From Gekko japonicus (lineage: Eukaryota), in contig NW_015165833.1 of NCBI RefSeq assembly GCF_001447785.1, positions 868,608-932,607 on the forward strand: a stretch of DNA of 64,000 nt, given 5' to 3'. Shown here in pieces: positions 2,693 to 31,500 of the stretch. The notes under the pieces were generated by a model. It searched no databases. It was not told the origin of the DNA and was given only the letters and a program-made list of their open reading frames with translations. How positions within the stretch are numbered: position 1 is the first letter of the stretch; each line of letters begins with the position of its first letter. The position numbers were made by a program, and so were the translations under genes.

Positions 2693-3415
2693 AGAATCAT
2701 AGAGTTGGAAGGGATCTCCAGGGTCATCTAGCCCAACTCCCTGCACAATGCAGGAAATTCACAAATACCTCCCCCCCACGTCTCCAGTGAGTGACGCCTG
2801 TTCCATGTCCAGAAGATGACAAAAAACCTCCAGGATCCCTGGCCAAACTGGCCTGGAGAAAAAGTGCTCCCTGACCCCAAAGTGGCGATCAGCATTTCTC
2901 TGGGCATGTGAGAAAGGGCCACGAGAACTAAGCACTGAATGCAACCCTTCCTGCCCTCCTTCCCATGATCTGCCTAAGTTCACAGAATCAGCATTGCTGT
3001 CAGGTGGCCATCAAGCCTCTGCTTAAAAGCCTCCAAAGAAGGAGAGCCTCCTGTGGAAGCCTGTTCCACTGAGGACTCTAACTGTCAGGAAGGTCTTCCT
3101 ATTGTTTAGCCGAAAACTCTTTTTATTTAATTTCAACTTATTGGTTCTGGTCCAACCTTCTGGGGCAACAGGAAACAACTCTGCACCATCCTTTATATGA
3201 CAGCCCTTCAAGTACTTGAAGATGGTTATCATATCACCTCTCAGTTGCCTCCTCTCCAGGCTAAACATACCCAGCTCCTTCAACCTTTCATTGTAAGACT
3301 TGGTCTCCAGATCCCTCACCATCTTTGTTGCCCTCCTCTGGACATGTTCCAGCTTGTCTATATCGTTCTTAAATTGTGATGACCAAAACTGAACACAATA
3401 CTCTAGGTGAGGTCT
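2693..3415 (-). mobile_element. CR1 LINE 3' fragment (ORF2 C-terminus plus 3' UTR)
   Basis: [12 protein letters not shown]...KLEHVQRRATKMVRDLE...LGMFSLERRQLRGDMI in ORF 3023-3673; CR1 3' end ccttccaactctatgattct. Confidence 0.95.
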
Positions 3416-4107
3416 AAGAAGAAGAGTTGGATATATATCTTGCCCTTCACTCGGGGTCTCAGAGCAGCTTACAATCTCCTTCCCTTCCTTTCCCCACAAC
3501 AGACACCCTGTGAGGTAGGTGGGGCTGAGAGAGCTGTGAGAGAACTGCTCTTGAGAGAAGAGCCCTGAGAGAATTGTGACTGAATCAAGGTCACCCAGAT
3601 GGCTGCATGTGGAGGAGTGGGGAATCAAACCCGGTTTTCTGTTGACAGACCTGTGGTGGGGCGGACAAGACATGTTTATATAAATTATTAACAGATGAAA
3701 TTTCAGTTATTACTAAGCTAACTGCTAGATTTTGTGCTCAGGAGATTAAAGTGTGCATTAAATTTCAGTCCTGCCCCTTTAAGCCTTGACTTAGTTTCCT
3801 TCAGGAGGTCTGTTATACAGCTCTTGTTTCTCTAAAATTCCTTGGTTTAAATCTTAAAAATGGTCACCTACGATGCTATGTTATGTATGTTATAATCTCT
3901 TTTTTCTTTTCGATATAATTTTATTTAGTTTTTTGATACATTTTCTATTTTTATATTTTAACTGGAGTTTTTAACTTGTATATTTGCATACCTGAATAAT
4001 GTTTGATTCTTGTCAACTGGATCTGGTCGTGGACTGTAATATAATAAAAAAGCTAACCCGGTTTTCCCATTTGAGTCGGCTGCTCTCAACTACTACACCA
4101 CACTGGG
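3416..4107 (-). mobile_element. Squam3-type SINE with (CTT)n tail, split by a LINE insertion at 3640-4054
   Basis: Body 3416-3639 and head 4055-4107 match the copies at 5357-5635 and 35572-35853. Confidence 0.85.
3640..4054 (+). mobile_element. Non-LTR retrotransposon 3' fragment, probably RTE-X
   Basis: 12-bp TSD aacccggttttc (3628-3639 and 4055-4066); peptide remnant KLLTDEISVITKLTARFCAQEIKV resembles RTE-X C-termini; A-rich end. Confidence 0.6.
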
Positions 4108-22890: not shown

Positions 22891-24289
22891 TTATATCCCA
22901 GTCAGAAGGTGGGAGGGGCATTTGCAAAGAAGGGAGCCAAGACGCAAAGACACAGTGCAAAGTGTTTAGAGAAGAATAGGAATGCTTAGGGGTAAGTAAT
23001 GAAAAAAGAAACACCCTAAAAAATAAAAATGACCACCTGAAACTTTCTGGGTTTTCTGTAGAACCCAGAACCTTTCTGCTCCATAAGGCCTTCCCAGATT
23101 GTTCCTATTGTGTTATATTGCTTTTGGTTTCTCTGCCGAGTGGCTGAAATTCTTGATCTTGGGGGGGGGGGGGGGGGGAAGCTCGCCAGTCCTTTACCAA
23201 TGTTTGGAGGGTGAAGGCTACAAAGGGACTGACAGCTGCAGTAATTGCACAGGTGTAACAATTTGTCCAGCATTTAGAACATTTAAAACTTTGAATCGGA
23301 GAGAATACTTGATACATTGGTTTCACTTTGGAAGCAAAACAAGGTAATTCAGAACTCTGTATGGTGCGTGTATGTGTGTGTGTGTAGGGAGGTTGGATGG
23401 AGAGAATTTCAGAGGCATCCCTAGCTCAGATGGGAGCTTCCTTGAACTTGATCAGACCAACCCCGGAGCTATCCTGCACCTTTGGGCCATCCCTGTGCTG
23501 TTCCTGTGGGCTAGCCATGTGATTGCACCATTGCCTACAGCTGTGAATCTGGGTCTTCAGTGTGTTTCTCTGTCAGGAACTGGACAAGAAACAGCTGCCA
23601 CTTAGAGGAGGTAGGTGGGCTGCCTTTCAAAATGAACAAAAGCAGAAACGAAGCTAAAACGATAGCATCAGCTCAGCTCTGAAATCTATGGCTCTCTGTA
23701 GATAGACTGTTTCTTCTTCTCCATGCTATCCAGTTGTAATAAGAATAATAATGGTAACAAGAAGAACAAGTACGCATTGTTCTGTCTCTGCTGCTGAAAA
23801 TCCAGTTGCAAATATTATTGTGTTTATTGATAGGGCTATAATGCGGGAATGGTATTGCCAGACGTCTACATTTCTTGGTGTTTAGAGAGAATCAGCAGTA
23901 ACGTATTGCACGGTATTAGCATAATAATTGGTAAGCATTCACAGATGAATAGTTTACTGACTGATAGATTTTGTACAGGAACTGTGAAGGTTACACGGAA
24001 GGTGAAAACATTTCGTTGTGTCAATGAATATACTTAATTTTTCTGGAAGTGCTATTTAAGTTGCGTTGCATTCTTGCATTAGCATAACAAAGACCTAATG
24101 CATTTGGCAGTGCGCTATTATAGGGACAACAGCCCCATAGTGGCTTCATCAGGTGACCCACAGAGGATTGGGGAGGGGGAGTCTGTGCTTCATTATGAAT
24201 CTCCAGCAGGCAGTCTCTAGAATCTCGGGGCCTCTCGTCAGCACCTGCAGAACATTCAACAGGTGAAGAAAGCCCTTTCAGCAGTGATC

Positions 24290-25075: not shown

Positions 25076-25245
25076 GGAGGGAAGGGTTGTGGCTCAGTGG
25101 TAGAGCATCTGCAGAAGGTCCCAGGTTCAGTCCCTGGCATCGGCAGTAAAAAAGGATTGGACTGTAGATGATGTGAAAGACTTCTGCCTGAGACCCAGGA
25201 GAGCCTCTGCCAGTCTGAGTAGACAATACTGACCTTGATGGACCA
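25076..25245 (+). mobile_element. tRNA-derived SINE (Squam2-like)
   Basis: gtggctcagtggtagagcatctgcagaaggtcccaggttcagtccctggcatc. Confidence 0.85.
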
Positions 25246-25700: not shown

Positions 25701-26899
25701 TATAATAGATAAACAGACTGATTCAGTGTAAGACAGCTTCATGTGTTCATGTGTGTGTTCAGGTTGCATATGCGGTGGAAAGAAGCTGTCTTGCTGGCCT
25801 CTGTTGTCAGTGGGATGAGCTGGGTGACCCTTGGGTGGATGGAGGGGCACAGAGCCATGCACATGTGAGAGGCACCTCATGGTTTGCATGGGTTAAAAAG
25901 AGGGTTCCTTGTGGCTGGGCTACAGACCAAACTGTTGCCGAGAAAGTCAAAGGGCATCTCTGGTTTGCTGTTCTCTAAACTGCTGAGAACCCCTTCCATC
26001 TGCACTCAGCCAAGCTTTCAAGCCCTGGAGTGATACTGTTTGTGTGCATATTTATATTTACTCCATAAATAGCTCCACATCAGAATTCCGGACATGTGGG
26101 GTTATCTATGCCAGAGATGGAAGAAGAAGAGAAAATCTATTTAACTCAGGAGACATTAGAGCTGATGTCACAGCAAAAACAAATTGCATGTGATGCCTGG
26201 AATAACACCCCTTGTTAGGTTTCCTGCTAAATATGGCGTGATCTTCCCATTTTCAAGATGTTCAGGAATTAGCACTCAAAAAATTAGAGGGGGCAGGAGA
26301 TAGCAGAAGAGCAGAATTGGTTGTGTGCATAGAAGCTGCCTGTCCTGGCCCAGCTTGAGGGGTCCGATCCACCACTAGGCTCCAACAATGCAAAAGGCAC
26401 TCAGTTAGACAAGGTCTGCACATGTAAATTTCCCTGTGATCGGATGGGTCGGTTACATATTCCAGTACATTTTTGTGGCAGTGCTTAAAGAGTAGGAAGA
26501 GAATGGAGTGTGCACATGACTAGAAATAGCAGTGTATGCTTTTGTTACTAGATTGGCTCAGTGTCTGTGATGATGGCAGGTGCTTTGGTTGAGGGGGTTG
26601 CTTGTGTGATGAAAGGGCTGCTGGGAAATGATGACTCAGAGAGATGGCTCCTCTGTTACCGACTGGCAAAGACACTGTTTTCAATGGAAATATTTCTCTT
26701 TAAATTTTTATTAGTTTCAAACTCTTACAAGTTATTTACAAGTTGTCTACAACAAAAAGTAAATTTGACATTCTTTGATAGTAGTCTTCCACAAATTGAC
26801 AATCCTATTCTGCTTCTACTTCATTGATAAATTATAATCGTTAATTAATCCAGTAGAATTGGCGCGCCTAGGTTAATATTTCTGCCTCTCAAAATTGCT

Positions 26900-27966
26900 T
26901 ATTTATTTATTTATTTCATTTATACCCCGCCCTCCCCGCACGCGGGCTCAGGGCGGCTTACATAGGCACAACAGTGCAATAAAATACAACATGATTAAAA
27001 CAATTTAGGCACCCAAAGTGCGATAAAATTACACAATTAACCACTTAAAACACAATTCAATCTTACAGGATGCATCGGTAATTAAAATACTCACTCATTA
27101 TTATATATTTCTGTGAGGTCAGAAGAAAGGGGGGGGGCATGCCATGGGCCAAGATGTTCTGGATGGCTAATCAGCCCACCCCGACGGCACTGCTCTGCAG
27201 TACACGATGGTGGTAATAGTGGCGGCGGCAGCTCCTACTCAAAAGCCTGGCGGAAGAGCTCCATCTTTTAGGCCCTGCGGAACTGTAAAAGGTCCTGCAG
27301 GGCCCTGATCTCCTCCGGGAGCTCATTCCACGAGGTAGGAGCCGCCGCCGAAAAGGACCTGGCCCTTGTGGCAGTAAGCCTGGCCTCTTTAGGTCCCGGG
27401 GTCACTAGGTGGTGTTGTGACCCCGACCGAAGTGCTCTTTGGGGCCTGTATGGGGAAAGGCGGTCCCTCAGGTATGCCGGACCCTGGCCATGTAGGGCTT
27501 TAAAGGTAAGCACCAGCACTTTGAAGCGAATCCGGAACACTATAGGCAGCCAGTGCAGTGCTTTCAGTACTGGCTGGATGTGATCCCATTTCGGGACCCC
27601 CATTACCAGCCTGGCCGCCGTATTCTGCACCAGCTGCAGCTTCCGAATTTGCGACAGAGGCAGCCCCATGTAGAGAGCGTTACAGTAGTCTAGCCTCGAG
27701 GTGACCGTCGCATGGATCACTGTGGCCAGATCGTCGCGGCTAAGGAAGGGGACCAACTGCCACACCAGCCGTAGATGATAGAAGGTTGCTTTGGCAGTGG
27801 CCGCCACCTGGGCCTCCATCATTAAGTTGGGTTCCAGGAGCACTCCCAAACTCCTAACCTCCGAAGCTGGCACCAAAGGCGCCCCATCGAAAGCCAGGAG
27901 TGGGAGCCCCAATCCCATGCCACCCAGGCACAGGACCTCTGTCTTCCCTGGGTTCAGCTCCAGTAC
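26900..27966 (-). mobile_element. L2 LINE 3' fragment (young)
   Basis: Uninterrupted 216-aa ORF 27268-27918 (SRLDYCNALY..LQLVQNTAARL..LHWLP); (TAAA)n tail; TSD aattgct. Confidence 0.95.
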
Positions 27967-29122
27967 AATTGCTCTTGTAAACTCTATCTCCCATAATTTC
28001 CCTTTAAATCTCCTTATTTTATAACCATGTGTTCTATATATATTTCATTTTTAAATCATTATAATAAGATGGGTTACAATAAAGTTAAAAAAAAGTAAGG
28101 TACAAACTGAAAATATATTTCTCCATTTCTTAGCTTTGCTCTCTTAGATCTTTACTACATTCTGTTCTTCCTCTTCAAACTGGAGCTCTTCTAATTGGCG
28201 TTTCCTCACCCGGGACTCCGGCGCAATTCCGGAGAAGACTCTTGCTGGAGTCTTGTCCATTGGGGATGTGTGTGTGGGGATGTTCCAATAGCCCTAACTG
28301 CGTGCTCCCCTACACTTCATGTTCCAGGCTGCTTTGCTTAGGGGGAAATATATAATGCAAAAAGGAAAAAGAGAGAAGGAAAGAGAGAAGAGAAAAACAA
28401 AAAAATAACTCTATATCTGCAATCTCCTCTGTTGTAGGTCTTTACAGTCTTCTGGTGCGTTCATCTTCTTTTGCTTGTCAGTTCTTGGACTCCTAGCCTG
28501 AGTCCAATTCCAACGCCTTCAGAAGCTCTTCGTTGGATATTGAGTCATAAGCTGTGAGTGTTTTTCCTTGGTACGTGACCGATATATGTCCAAGCGGAAG
28601 CCAACGATACCTGAAGTTCTTCTCTGCAAGCTTTTGTGCACTTGGGCACATATTTTTCCTAGCATTTAAAATTTCAAATGGTATATCTGGATATAGCTGA
28701 ACCAAAGTGTCCTCAAGCTTTAGACCTCTGTTCTTCCTAGCAATTTCCAAGAGGTTCCTCTTAGTATTTGTGTCTTTAAGATCTGCTACTTCGGGGAGGG
28801 TTTACACGGAAAGCATTGTTTACCATTGGCCCCAGAAGCTGTATAATTCCTTCTAACCACTGGTTTAAAGCAACAGTAAGGTCCTTATTTAATTCAGAGT
28901 TAAAAGAAATTTCATGGAATTTCACTTTAGTTTCCCGTGATTTAGTTTCTAACAGCATTAGCTTGCTTTTCGCCCATCTTTCAAAAGTTTTTAATTCAGC
29001 TATTTCTTTAGAGTTCTTTTGCTGTCGCCGCCTTCTCCTGAGTTTCCTGCAGCTTTTTGTTGACTTCATTCAGCTTATTCATAATAGGAGTCATGCTGTT
29101 TCTTATCTCCTCTTTTAAGTCT

Positions 29123-30725
29123 TATTTATTTATTTATTAATTATTCAATTTATATCCCACCCTCCCCTAAGGCTCAGGGTGGCTAACAAATGAGGCAAAA
29201 CCCATAATTAAAACAATTAAAACAAGATAAAAACATAACAATAGTACAACAACGTGCTGGTGCTCTGATGTTCCCAGTTCCAAGATGGGTTCTGGTAGGG
29301 TGGATCCGGACCAACGACATAAGTTCCAAAGCGACAGATAGCCAGTCTTCTTCCCAGGGCCTGATTGCACCCTGATGGTATCTCTGCCAGTTTTCGGCGA
29401 CGGTGCATTGATGGAACAGTATCGGCGGCGGCTCCTACTTGAAAGCCTGGCGGAAGAGCTCCGTCTTGCAGGCCCTGCGGAACTGCGCAAGATCCTGCAG
29501 GGCCCGGATCTCATCCGGGAGCTCATTTTATCAGGTAGGAGCCACCACCGAAAAGGCTCTGGCCCTAGTCTTGGCGAATTTGACCTCCCTGAGGCCTGGG
29601 GTAGTCAAAGGATGTTGCCCCCCCCCCGACCGTAGTGCCCTTGGGGGAAGGCAGTCCCTTAGGTATGCCGGACCCTGACCATAAAGGGCTTTAAAGGTAA
29701 GAACCAGCACTTTGAAGCGGATCTGATACGCTATTGGCAGCCAGTGCAGCGCCTTCAGCACAGGCCGGATGTGGTCCCGCCTAGGGAGACCCATCAACAG
29801 CCTGGCTGCTGCATTCTGCACTAGCTGCAGCTTCCGGATTTGCGACAAAGGCAGCCCTAAGTAGAGAGCGTTAGAGTAGTCCAGCCTCCAGATGACCGTC
29901 ACATGGATCACTGTAGCCAGGTCATCACGCTCAAGGAAGGGAACCAACTGCTGTGCCAGTCGAAGATGATAAAAGGCCGACTTGGCAGTGGCCTTGCAAT
30001 GCCCGTTGGAGGTCATCTGGGTCGGAGTTTGACCGGCCGCCCAGCATCAGATAGAGCTGATCTGGGCAATCTGGGCAAGGGGACACATGTAGATGTTAAA
30101 CAACACTGGGGACAGCACTGCCCCCTGAGGCACCCCACAATCAAAAGGGTGCCTCCGGGACTGCTGCTCCCCTATCACCACCCTTTGTCCCCGACCTTGG
30201 AGAAAAGAGGCAAACCATTGGAGGGCCAGTCCCTGAATCTCCGCGTCAGCGAGGCGGTGGGCCAGCAACTGGTGATCGACCGTATCAAATGTGGCCGACA
30301 GATCGAGCAACAACGGTGCTGCCACACCACCTCGATCCAGATGCCTTCGGAGGTCATCAGTCAGGGCGACCAATGCCGTCTCCGTCCCATGACCCGGGTG
30401 AAAGCCAGACTGGAAGGGGTCTAAGACTGAAGCATCCTCCAGAAAACTCTGTAGCTGTATTGCCACTGCCCTCTCGATATGTTTGCCCAAATAGGGCAAA
30501 TTGGACGCTGGCCGATAGTTTGCCAATTCGGTCGGGTCCAGGGATGGTTTTTGCAAGAGAGGGTGGACCATCGCTTCCTTGAATGCCCCAAGGAACAGCC
30601 CCTCCAAGAGGGACTTGTTGATAATCTCCAATCTCCCGTAGGGCACCTCAAAACCCCTCGTGGGCCACCTTAATGAGCCAGGGGGGGCATGGATCAAGGC
30701 TGCACATGGTTGGACACACAGAGAG
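29123..30725 (-). mobile_element. L2 LINE 3' fragment with RT domain and internal deletions
   Basis: NYRPASNLPYLGK, FQSGFHPGHGTETAL, LLDLSATFDTVDH, GVPQGAVLSPVLFNIYM; TSD ttttaagtct (29113-29122 and 30726-30735). Confidence 0.95.
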
Positions 30726-31113
30726 TTTTAAGTCTGTCAACATCTCCTGTAAATGTTGTTTGGTTAAAGAGTCCTCTCTCTTCCTTTTACTTGCCTGAGC
30801 TTCTACTTCCTCCCTTTCCAATGGGGGGGGAGTCCTCTTCTGAAGAGTTTTGGTTTTCTTGCGCTGCTCTAGGCATCGTTTTGGAGAGATTCTTGCCACC
30901 TTTTGCTCCCCTGTTCCTCCCCATTGTTTTGGTAAAGCTGTGTTATTTAAATTGCAGCCCGTGTTTTTTTTATTTTAATTCTTTTGTAGGAGCCTGATGC
31001 GGAGGCTGAGCTGGGTGTGACTGCATGGCTCTGCTGTTGCTCCGCCCCCCCCAAGTCTTTCATGTCTTGCAGATGGACTGGCAGCTCTTAAGAAACAAAA
31101 CGAAACCCAAGGT

Positions 31114-31330
31114 GGGGAGGGGTTGCGGCTCAGTGGCAGAGCCCTAGCTTGGCAGGTAGAATGTCCCAGGCTCAATCCCTCTCTGGCATCTCCAGTTGGA
31201 AGGATTAGGTAGCAGGTGATGGGAAAAATGTGTGCCTGAGATTCCGGAAAGCCACTGCCAGTCTGAGTAGACAATATTGACTTGGTGGACCAAGGGTCTG
31301 ATTCCTTATAAGGCAGCTGTATGTGTTCAT
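31114..31330 (+). mobile_element. tRNA-derived SINE (Squam2-like)
   Basis: ggggaggggttgcggctcagtggcagagc...tail tatgtgttcatgt. Confidence 0.88.
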
Positions 31331-31500
31331 GTCCCATGTTTTCTCCCGTCATGGTGAGCTGTCCCCAGGAATAAAGATATGGTGCAAAACATGCCCTCTG
31401 AATCAGCTGTAGGGTGTAAGCCTGAAATGGCTGTCCTTGAAGTGAGCCCATTGACTCCAATGGGCCTGACCTAGAATGTGGTCTGAACACTGTTCCCGGT

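What the first reader, a model, noticed from the sequence alone, without database searches (positions are those of the whole stretch)
26690..31052. Reconstructable ORF1-only 'half-L1' (HAL1-like) retroelement in a squamate
Seen: excising two L2 insertions at their TSDs (ttttaagtct 29113/30726; aattgct 26893/27967) joins three pieces into one ~1.7-kb minus-strand unit. It runs from a G-rich 5' start (~31052) through an ATG at ~30924 and a decayed ~280-codon L1-type ORF1 (MLTDLK|EEIRNSM coiled coil joined across the TSD, RRM-like KSRETKVKFHEI, C-terminal LYPDIP...RYRW). About 0.7 kb of non-coding sequence with no endonuclease or RT motif follows, ending in AATAAA plus an A-rich tail (~26695). 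Known: HAL1 elements encode ORF1p without ORF2p and are described from mammals. Inference: this is an independently derived reptilian HAL1-type family mobilised in trans. I could not find an outer TSD.
Basis: partly seen in the sequence, partly recalled or inferred. Interest (0 to 1): 0.7.

Follow-up and report, generated by a model that had tools for sequence, protein, structure and literature searches.

The report
Long-lived half-L1 retroelement lineage in reptile
This is a dead, twice-interrupted copy of a short jumping gene that carries only the RNA-binding gene of LINE-1 and likely borrows the copying enzyme from full LINE-1s; its relatives in the same genome, likely a lizard's, have conserved that one protein over a long history and include very young intact copies, a design the papers I found describe for LINE-1 only in mammals.

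Summary
Confirmed, with one correction. Three pieces (26697-31052, minus strand) join into a 1,695-nt copy, 93.7% identical to a family consensus with an open 291-codon ORF. A sister ORF folds like human L1 ORF1p. None of 135 other ORF1-bearing loci has ORF2 between ORF1 and its own tail. Copies have sharp ends, A tails and target-site duplications (25 of 38 in each of two batches; 2 of 200 in controls). The element belongs to one lineage of at least nine subfamilies (45-94% protein identity). They form one branch beside the genome's autonomous L1s, show dN/dS 0.06-0.19 between subfamily consensuses, and include copies 99% alike with intact ORF1 and RNA reads. Best reading: a HAL1-type non-autonomous L1 moved in trans by L1 ORF2p (inferred). 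This scan has noted ORF1-only L1 derivatives before, in this genome and others. New member of a known kind; the young intact copies make the role of HAL1 ORF1 testable.

The parts
30725..31052 (-). 5' arm: G-rich 5' end, about 128-nt 5' UTR, ORF1 start (ATG 30924), 2-nt loss near 30820
   Evidence: the 5' end resembles that of autonomous L1s of this genome
29124..30724 (-). later, 5'-truncated LINE insertion (RT fragment; L2 label from recalled motifs and tail), no target duplication
   Evidence: Pfam RVT_1 E 4e-22; junctions against the family consensus
28493..29123 (-). rest of ORF1 (coiled coil, RRM, CTD) to the stop at 28495-28493; broken by 14-nt (about 29020) and 29-nt (about 28790) deletions
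   Evidence: domain identity from a sister protein
27957..28492 (-). 3' UTR, first part, non-coding, no EN/RT remnant
28182..28308 (-). GC-rich island of the 3' UTR, alignable across subfamilies; hairpins predicted per family, shared structure not shown
26900..27956 (-). second later LINE (L2-type) insertion, 84-85% like the first, flanked by a 3-nt duplication (27957-27959 / 26897-26899)
26697..26899 (-). 3' arm: end of 3' UTR, AATAAA at 26712-26707, decayed A-rich tail, no outer TSD

Best explanation
This is a dead copy of a multi-copy, ORF1-only derivative of LINE-1 (HAL1 type) that likely makes its own ORF1 protein, predicted to form trimers on the element's RNA, and likely borrows the endonuclease and reverse transcriptase (ORF2p) of autonomous L1s to insert by target-primed reverse transcription. 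Shown: family structure, absence of ORF2, L1 ORF1p fold of a sister protein, A tails, 10-19-nt TSDs, 5' truncations, purifying selection on ORF1 between subfamilies, young intact copies. Inferred: an internal 5' promoter, action of ORF1p in cis, the L1 partner, and a single ancient loss of ORF2 from an L1 of the short-5'-UTR, long-spacer type. The window copy itself later lost its frame and received two L2-type insertions.
For: 47 DNA matches; 104 exact hits of a 20-nt ORF1 pattern against 1 for the reversed control. ORF2 inside the element in 0 of 69 and 0 of 66 loci, whereas 18 of 20 loci with the related autonomous-type ORF1 show ORF2 pieces and 2 are hidden by N gaps. TSD of 10 nt or more in 25 of 38 two-ended copies against 2 of 200 mismatched flank pairs; 25 of 38 in a second batch. 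19 of 20 3'-UTR hits are 5'-truncated; 12 of the 20 have a TSD, and none has its own ORF2 upstream. Profile hit to human L1 ORF1p E 1.5e-30; model pLDDT 87, Foldseek ranks 1-11 all L1 ORF1p, best E 9e-10. dN/dS 0.06-0.19 within the two larger clades, against 0.37-0.68 for copies versus their own consensus. Nine consensus ORF1s form one branch, SH-aLRT 100, stem 1.54. Trimer model of a young sister ORF1p: score 0.80, best of 3 controls 0.00, runs agree in at least 93% of contacts, pLDDT at least 84; the mark was reached by 21 of 30 solved pairs and 0 of 23 single chains (microbes; on eukaryotes 17 of 29, and only 1 of 7 without an older solved relative), so the pass may come from likeness to the solved L1 trimer. 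RNA reads cover a young copy end to end with none on its unique flanks.
Against: No autonomous partner was pinned down: UTRs give only weak short matches (best E 2e-4) to 20 autonomous loci, ORF1 identity is only 30-37%, and those loci were picked by one outside query, so a closer parent may be unsampled. No direct Pfam L1 hit for any family member scanned; 63 of the 67 rows of the profile are database relatives. The tree is the quick one, on a long stem. Consensuses rest on 3-18 copies. 10 of 66 loci of the second batch did not reach the family's 3' end in the fetched DNA. RNA depth is low (about 1-9), from one study, looks unstranded and could be read-through. The window copy has no outer TSD.
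Confidence: 0.85

Rival explanations
1. The copies are short, prematurely polyadenylated or spliced transcripts of an autonomous L1 not sampled here, so selection on ORF1 acted in the parent.
For: Premature polyadenylation is a described source of ORF1-only L1 RNA (PMC4859970, passage). Searches return only top candidates.
Against: Young subfamilies are 99% alike, so an equally young parent should share their ORF1; 0 of 135 loci have ORF2 inside, including all 100 listed of 104 pattern hits apart from the window's own. The 3' UTR island is alignable across subfamilies whose synonymous sites are saturated.
Confidence: 0.05
2. The source is a domesticated ORF1 host gene (L1TD1-like) and the copies are its processed pseudogenes.
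For: Strong purifying selection and RNA reads fit a host gene too; L1TD1 is a precedent (PMC4161310, abstract start only).
Against: At least four young subfamilies (77-93% protein identity) and two older ones of like age coexist; copies begin at L1-type 5' ends without host exons; one TSD-flanked copy appears to have spawned another with its 3' flank.
Confidence: 0.05
3. The element is a true ORF1-only family, but its protein works mainly by joining the autonomous element's ORF1p particles (or is moved by a non-L1 LINE) rather than by packaging its own RNA.
For: Multimerisation with the autonomous counterpart is the function proposed in PMC5786205 (passage).
Against: All three domains are kept and a homotrimer is modelled; 30-37% identity to the sampled autonomous ORF1s makes mixed coiled coils less likely (inference). 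A tails with 10-19-nt TSDs match the autonomous L1s here, while the two L2 inserts made 0-3 nt.
Confidence: 0.15
4. A one-off internal deletion or chance juxtaposition at this locus.
For: No outer TSD at this copy.
Against: 14 of 29 other loci align unbroken across both junctions; sharp shared ends.
Confidence: 0.01

Closest known systems
HAL1 (half-L1) of mammals (Smit 1999; Bao and Jurka 2010, not held; known through passages of PMC5753468, PMC5786205, PMC3627910, PMC8535693)
   Same: L1-derived, encodes ORF1p only, A tail and TSDs, keeps its 5' end, ORF1 coding capacity maintained over long times (29-44 Myr cited for guinea pig in PMC3627910).
   Different: Likely non-mammalian host; ORF1 groups with this genome's short-5'-UTR, long-spacer L1s; several subfamilies coexist with saturated synonymous divergence; two kinds of 5' end; 3' UTR not traceable to a sampled autonomous L1.
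Autonomous lizard clade-2-type L1 (PMC5381506, passages; loci L051-L070)
   Same: ORF1 homology (30-37%), short GC-box-like 5' end in the window's subfamily, A tail, 14-20-nt TSDs.
   Different: No ORF2; 1.55-1.7 kb against about 5.3-5.9 kb; the spacer hairpin model of these L1s does not match the element's 3' UTR.
HeT-A (Jockey clade) and Ag-Sponge (CR1 clade) (PMC5786205, passage)
   Same: Non-autonomous LINEs that encode only ORF1p.
   Different: Other clades and hosts, other ORF1 types (recalled).
L1TD1
   Same: ORF1p-derived protein under selection (PDB 2lr6, weak profile hit E 0.026).
   Different: Single domesticated host gene; here a dispersed, recently mobile family.

Membership tests
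HAL1-type non-autonomous L1 | ORF is an L1-clade ORF1p (coiled coil, RRM, CTD) | tested here: met
   shown on sister proteins and consensus; no direct Pfam hit
HAL1-type non-autonomous L1 | no ORF2 within the element | tested here: met
   0 of 135 loci; hits in 9 loci lie in flanks
HAL1-type non-autonomous L1 | amplified as a unit, with A tail, TSDs and 5' truncations | tested here: met
HAL1-type non-autonomous L1 | ORF1 coding capacity maintained after loss of ORF2 | tested here: met
   dN/dS 0.06-0.19; intact ORFs in 14 of 20 loci chosen for long frames and 12 of 66 unselected ones
HAL1-type non-autonomous L1 | retains an L1 internal promoter | tested here: inconclusive
   5' motif likeness only; RNA reads show no start site
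HAL1-type non-autonomous L1 | 3' part derived from the autonomous L1's 3' end | tested here: inconclusive
   only weak matches, best E 2e-4 over 41 nt
HAL1-type non-autonomous L1 | moved in trans by L1 ORF2p | not testable with these tools
   indirect: TSD and tail type like the autonomous L1s
HAL1-type non-autonomous L1 | identity with a family already in Repbase or Dfam | not testable with these tools
   neither library is held
Autonomous L1 | ORF2 with endonuclease and reverse transcriptase | tested here: not met
Domesticated ORF1 gene (L1TD1-like) | one fixed, syntenic source locus | tested here: inconclusive
   several coexisting young subfamilies argue against; no relative's genome is held

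The most novel reading that the evidence does not exclude
A reptile hosts an ancient, still-mobile half-L1 lineage that has broken free of its parent: one loss of ORF2, then a radiation into coexisting subfamilies that swap 5' promoters, keep a self-trimerising ORF1p under strong selection, and use a conserved structured 3' UTR island as their own signal to capture ORF2p from several unrelated L1 families.
Probability: 0.25. Interest if true: 0.68.

Novelty: new member of a known kind. Interest (0 to 1): 0.45.

Why it matters
HAL1 elements pose a standing question: why does a parasite of L1 keep paying for ORF1 when SINEs do not? The human examples are fossils (recalled). Here the same design arose outside mammals, lasted long enough to saturate synonymous sites under dN/dS near 0.1, and still has intact, nearly identical copies with RNA reads. 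That gives natural material to test whether ORF1p must act in cis and how a foreign RNA captures ORF2p. Practically, such families inflate ORF1 counts and are missed by RT-based repeat surveys of reptile genomes.

Tried and rejected
Direct Pfam scans of window pieces and family ORFs: no L1 family. Single-sequence PDB search: nothing relevant. Word-based protein searches: no hit at E 0.001 (near lengths only). Atlas: not available. Rfam on 5 loci: nothing in the element or spacer. A shared 3' UTR structure: per-family folds gave z from -3.4 to +0.9 (window family -2.2), RNAalifold on 19 aligned copies found no consensus (5 pairs, -0.28 kcal/mol), and a covariance model of the autonomous spacer hairpins missed all 17 element loci among 20 searched while finding one more autonomous L1 (E 5e-9); so origin of the island from the spacer is not shown. 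ORF2 remnants in consensus 3' UTRs: none. ORF2 hits next to L040, L047, L087, L158, L171 are older L1s into which copies inserted. No indexed run is on record as RNA holder. RNA over the window copy itself could not be examined, so its expression is open. Sequence look-up in earlier findings: none alike. Literature: HAL1+reptile+LINE 0 papers; HAL1+lizard 9, HAL1+ORF1+non-mammalian 1, and two broader searches showed no report of reptile HAL1 in listings or in the passages read; the primary paper, Repbase, Dfam and all supplements were not seen and may hold one.
Full report
Observation. The minus strand of 26697-31052 holds three pieces of one element separated by two LINE fragments. A search of the own genome with the ORF core gave 47 matches (a lower bound). 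Of the 29 other loci fetched, 14 align in one piece across both junctions, and most share a sharp G-rich 5' end and an AATAAA-plus-A 3' end. Its junction detail is not. The 10-nt and 7-nt 'TSDs' (exact) are native direct repeats of the family. The true inserts are 29124-30724, with no duplication, and 26900-27956, with 3 nt. The corrected unit is 1,695 nt and 93.7% identical to the subfamily consensus. It has frameshifting deletions of 2, 14 and 29 nt in ORF1 and no outer TSD, so this copy is dead. The L2 label of the inserts rests on an RVT_1 hit and recalled motifs.

The protein. The subfamily consensus has an open 291-codon ORF. No member hits an L1 Pfam family directly. A search of 1.84 billion representatives gave 132 relatives, the best at 29-31% identity. 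In an alignment of 4 family ORFs and 63 of these relatives, 10 of 67 rows match Transposase_22, and its profile finds human L1 ORF1p at E 1.5e-30. A model of an intact sister ORF (L039; pLDDT 87) shows a long helix, an RRM-like and a CTD-like domain; Foldseek ranks 1-11 are all human L1 ORF1p. A three-copy model passes (0.80 against 0.00), possibly from likeness to the solved trimer.

A lineage, not one family. A protein search of the genome gave 151 matches down to about 46% identity. I fetched 40 of the more distant ones; all belong to 1.55-1.7-kb units. Eleven groups emerged; nine had three or more copies and were given consensuses. The window's subfamily and one other are 3-7% from their consensus; four subfamilies are very young, with copies about 99% alike and intact 289-codon ORFs. 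A 20-nt pattern for two of the clades has 104 exact hits against 1 in the control; the 66 listed hits not yet held were fetched. ORF2 was found inside the element in 0 of 69 and 0 of 66 loci; hits in 3 and 6 loci lie beyond the tail or on both sides, as expected for insertion into older L1s. Ten of the 66 did not reach the family's 3' end and say little. In contrast, 18 of 20 loci found with an outside relative (P0002) carry ORF2 pieces after a spacer of about 280-730 nt, and 2 are hidden by gaps. That layout matches lizard clade-2 L1 in PMC5381506 (passages).

Insertion marks. TSDs of 10 nt or more flank 25 of 38 two-ended copies, against 2 of 200 mismatched pairs, and 25 of 38 in the second batch. 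Of 20 hits to a young 3' UTR, 19 are 5'-truncated and 12 have a TSD. In 14 of 22 hand-trimmed sites TC or TT precedes the duplication; several autonomous L1 sites look alike, not counted. These are the established marks of L1-type target-primed reverse transcription; the L2 inserts here made 0-3 nt. The window's subfamily starts like the autonomous L1s (motif in 15 of 20), the others with a TTCCGG-type end like that reported for other L1s, which suggests a 5' end swap (inference).

Selection and origin. Between consensuses within the two larger clades dN/dS is 0.06-0.19; between clades synonymous sites are saturated at 45-57% protein identity; copies against their own consensus give 0.37-0.68, with stops (simple counting method, so the neutral level is below 1). 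In a quick tree of 50 rows (9 consensuses, 18 of the 20 autonomous ORF1s, 23 of the 132 outside relatives) the nine form one branch (100, stem 1.54) in a weakly supported group (88) with the autonomous ORF1s (the careful search did not finish). A GC-rich 3' UTR island aligns across the clades. Together these favour one old loss of ORF2 followed by selection on ORF1 in the ORF2-less state. The parent was not found: best identity 30-37%, UTR matches weak. A shared RNA structure in the island is suggested by eye but was not shown.

Expression. In two of three RNA-seq runs of one study, reads cover a young copy end to end at depth about 1-9, with none on its unique flanks; the third is sparse. This shows family RNA, not its promoter or its level.

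Host. Squamate is likely but indirect: the one named relative among ten looked up is from a gecko, the L1 layout is lizard-like, and flanks hold Bov-B-like RT (label recalled).

Mechanism. Most likely (0.85): transcription from the element's 5' end, translation of ORF1p that coats its own RNA, capture of ORF2p from an autonomous L1 at the A tail, insertion by target-primed reverse transcription. Structure, selection and insertion marks are shown; promoter, cis action and partner are inferred. PMC3627910 (passage) draws the same inference for guinea pig HAL1; PMC5786205 (passage) proposes multimerisation with the autonomous protein instead.

Known and new. HAL1 is described as arising several times in mammals (PMC5753468, passages). 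I also read passages of PMC5203782, PMC8535693 and PMC4859970. Seven searches showed no reptile report, but Bao and Jurka 2010, Repbase, Dfam and supplements were not seen. Earlier notes of this scan describe ORF1-only L1 derivatives in this genome and in others; they are unchecked, seem to concern other families (no sequence look-alike) and were not used as support. Verdict: real; new member of a known kind; interest 0.45, carried by the young intact relatives rather than by the window copy.

Noticed in passing
L051:2456-2537, L058:5697-5778, L064:5735-5814 and 8 more (alignment A3); L066:2400-2481: The ORF1-ORF2 spacers of autonomous L1s in this genome share two abutting hairpins, often closed as a three-way junction; 7 of 11 predicted pairs show changes on both sides, and a model built from 11 spacers finds a twelfth at E 5e-9. 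The 11 were picked by a motif, which biases the count. PMC5381506 reported no shared spacer structure.
   Followed up: partly
L044/L180 (G000:C9525) and L171/L178 (G000:C15658): L044 matches the TSD-flanked copy L171 from the exact 5' start through about 510 nt of L171's 3' flank (99.3% over 2,083 nt) with a different upstream flank: a candidate 3' transduction naming L171 as a source copy; no A tail or TSD at the far end.
   Followed up: partly
L041/L179 and L173/L177: Two copies share at least 1.4 kb of upstream flank but differ after the A tail: 5' transduction, duplication or assembly artefact; a gap hides the start.
   Followed up: partly
window 22337-23104 (-): 255-codon frame resembling an LTR-retrotransposon integrase region (label recalled).
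   Followed up: no
window 3023-3706 (-): Frame with a CR1-like reverse transcriptase 3' fragment (label recalled).
   Followed up: no
window 25079-25233 and 31115-31281; 25718-25752 and 31298-31332: Two copies of a SINE-like repeat, 79-89% alike, lie on either side of the element.
   Followed up: no
L046 (G000:C10617) and L105 (G000:C4479): Two old-subfamily loci are 100% identical over the searched ORF1 part: possibly a duplicated segment.
   Followed up: no
P0050: A 902-aa database protein joins RING/B-box-like parts to an L1 ORF1-like stretch: a gene-model chimera or a real fusion.
   Followed up: no
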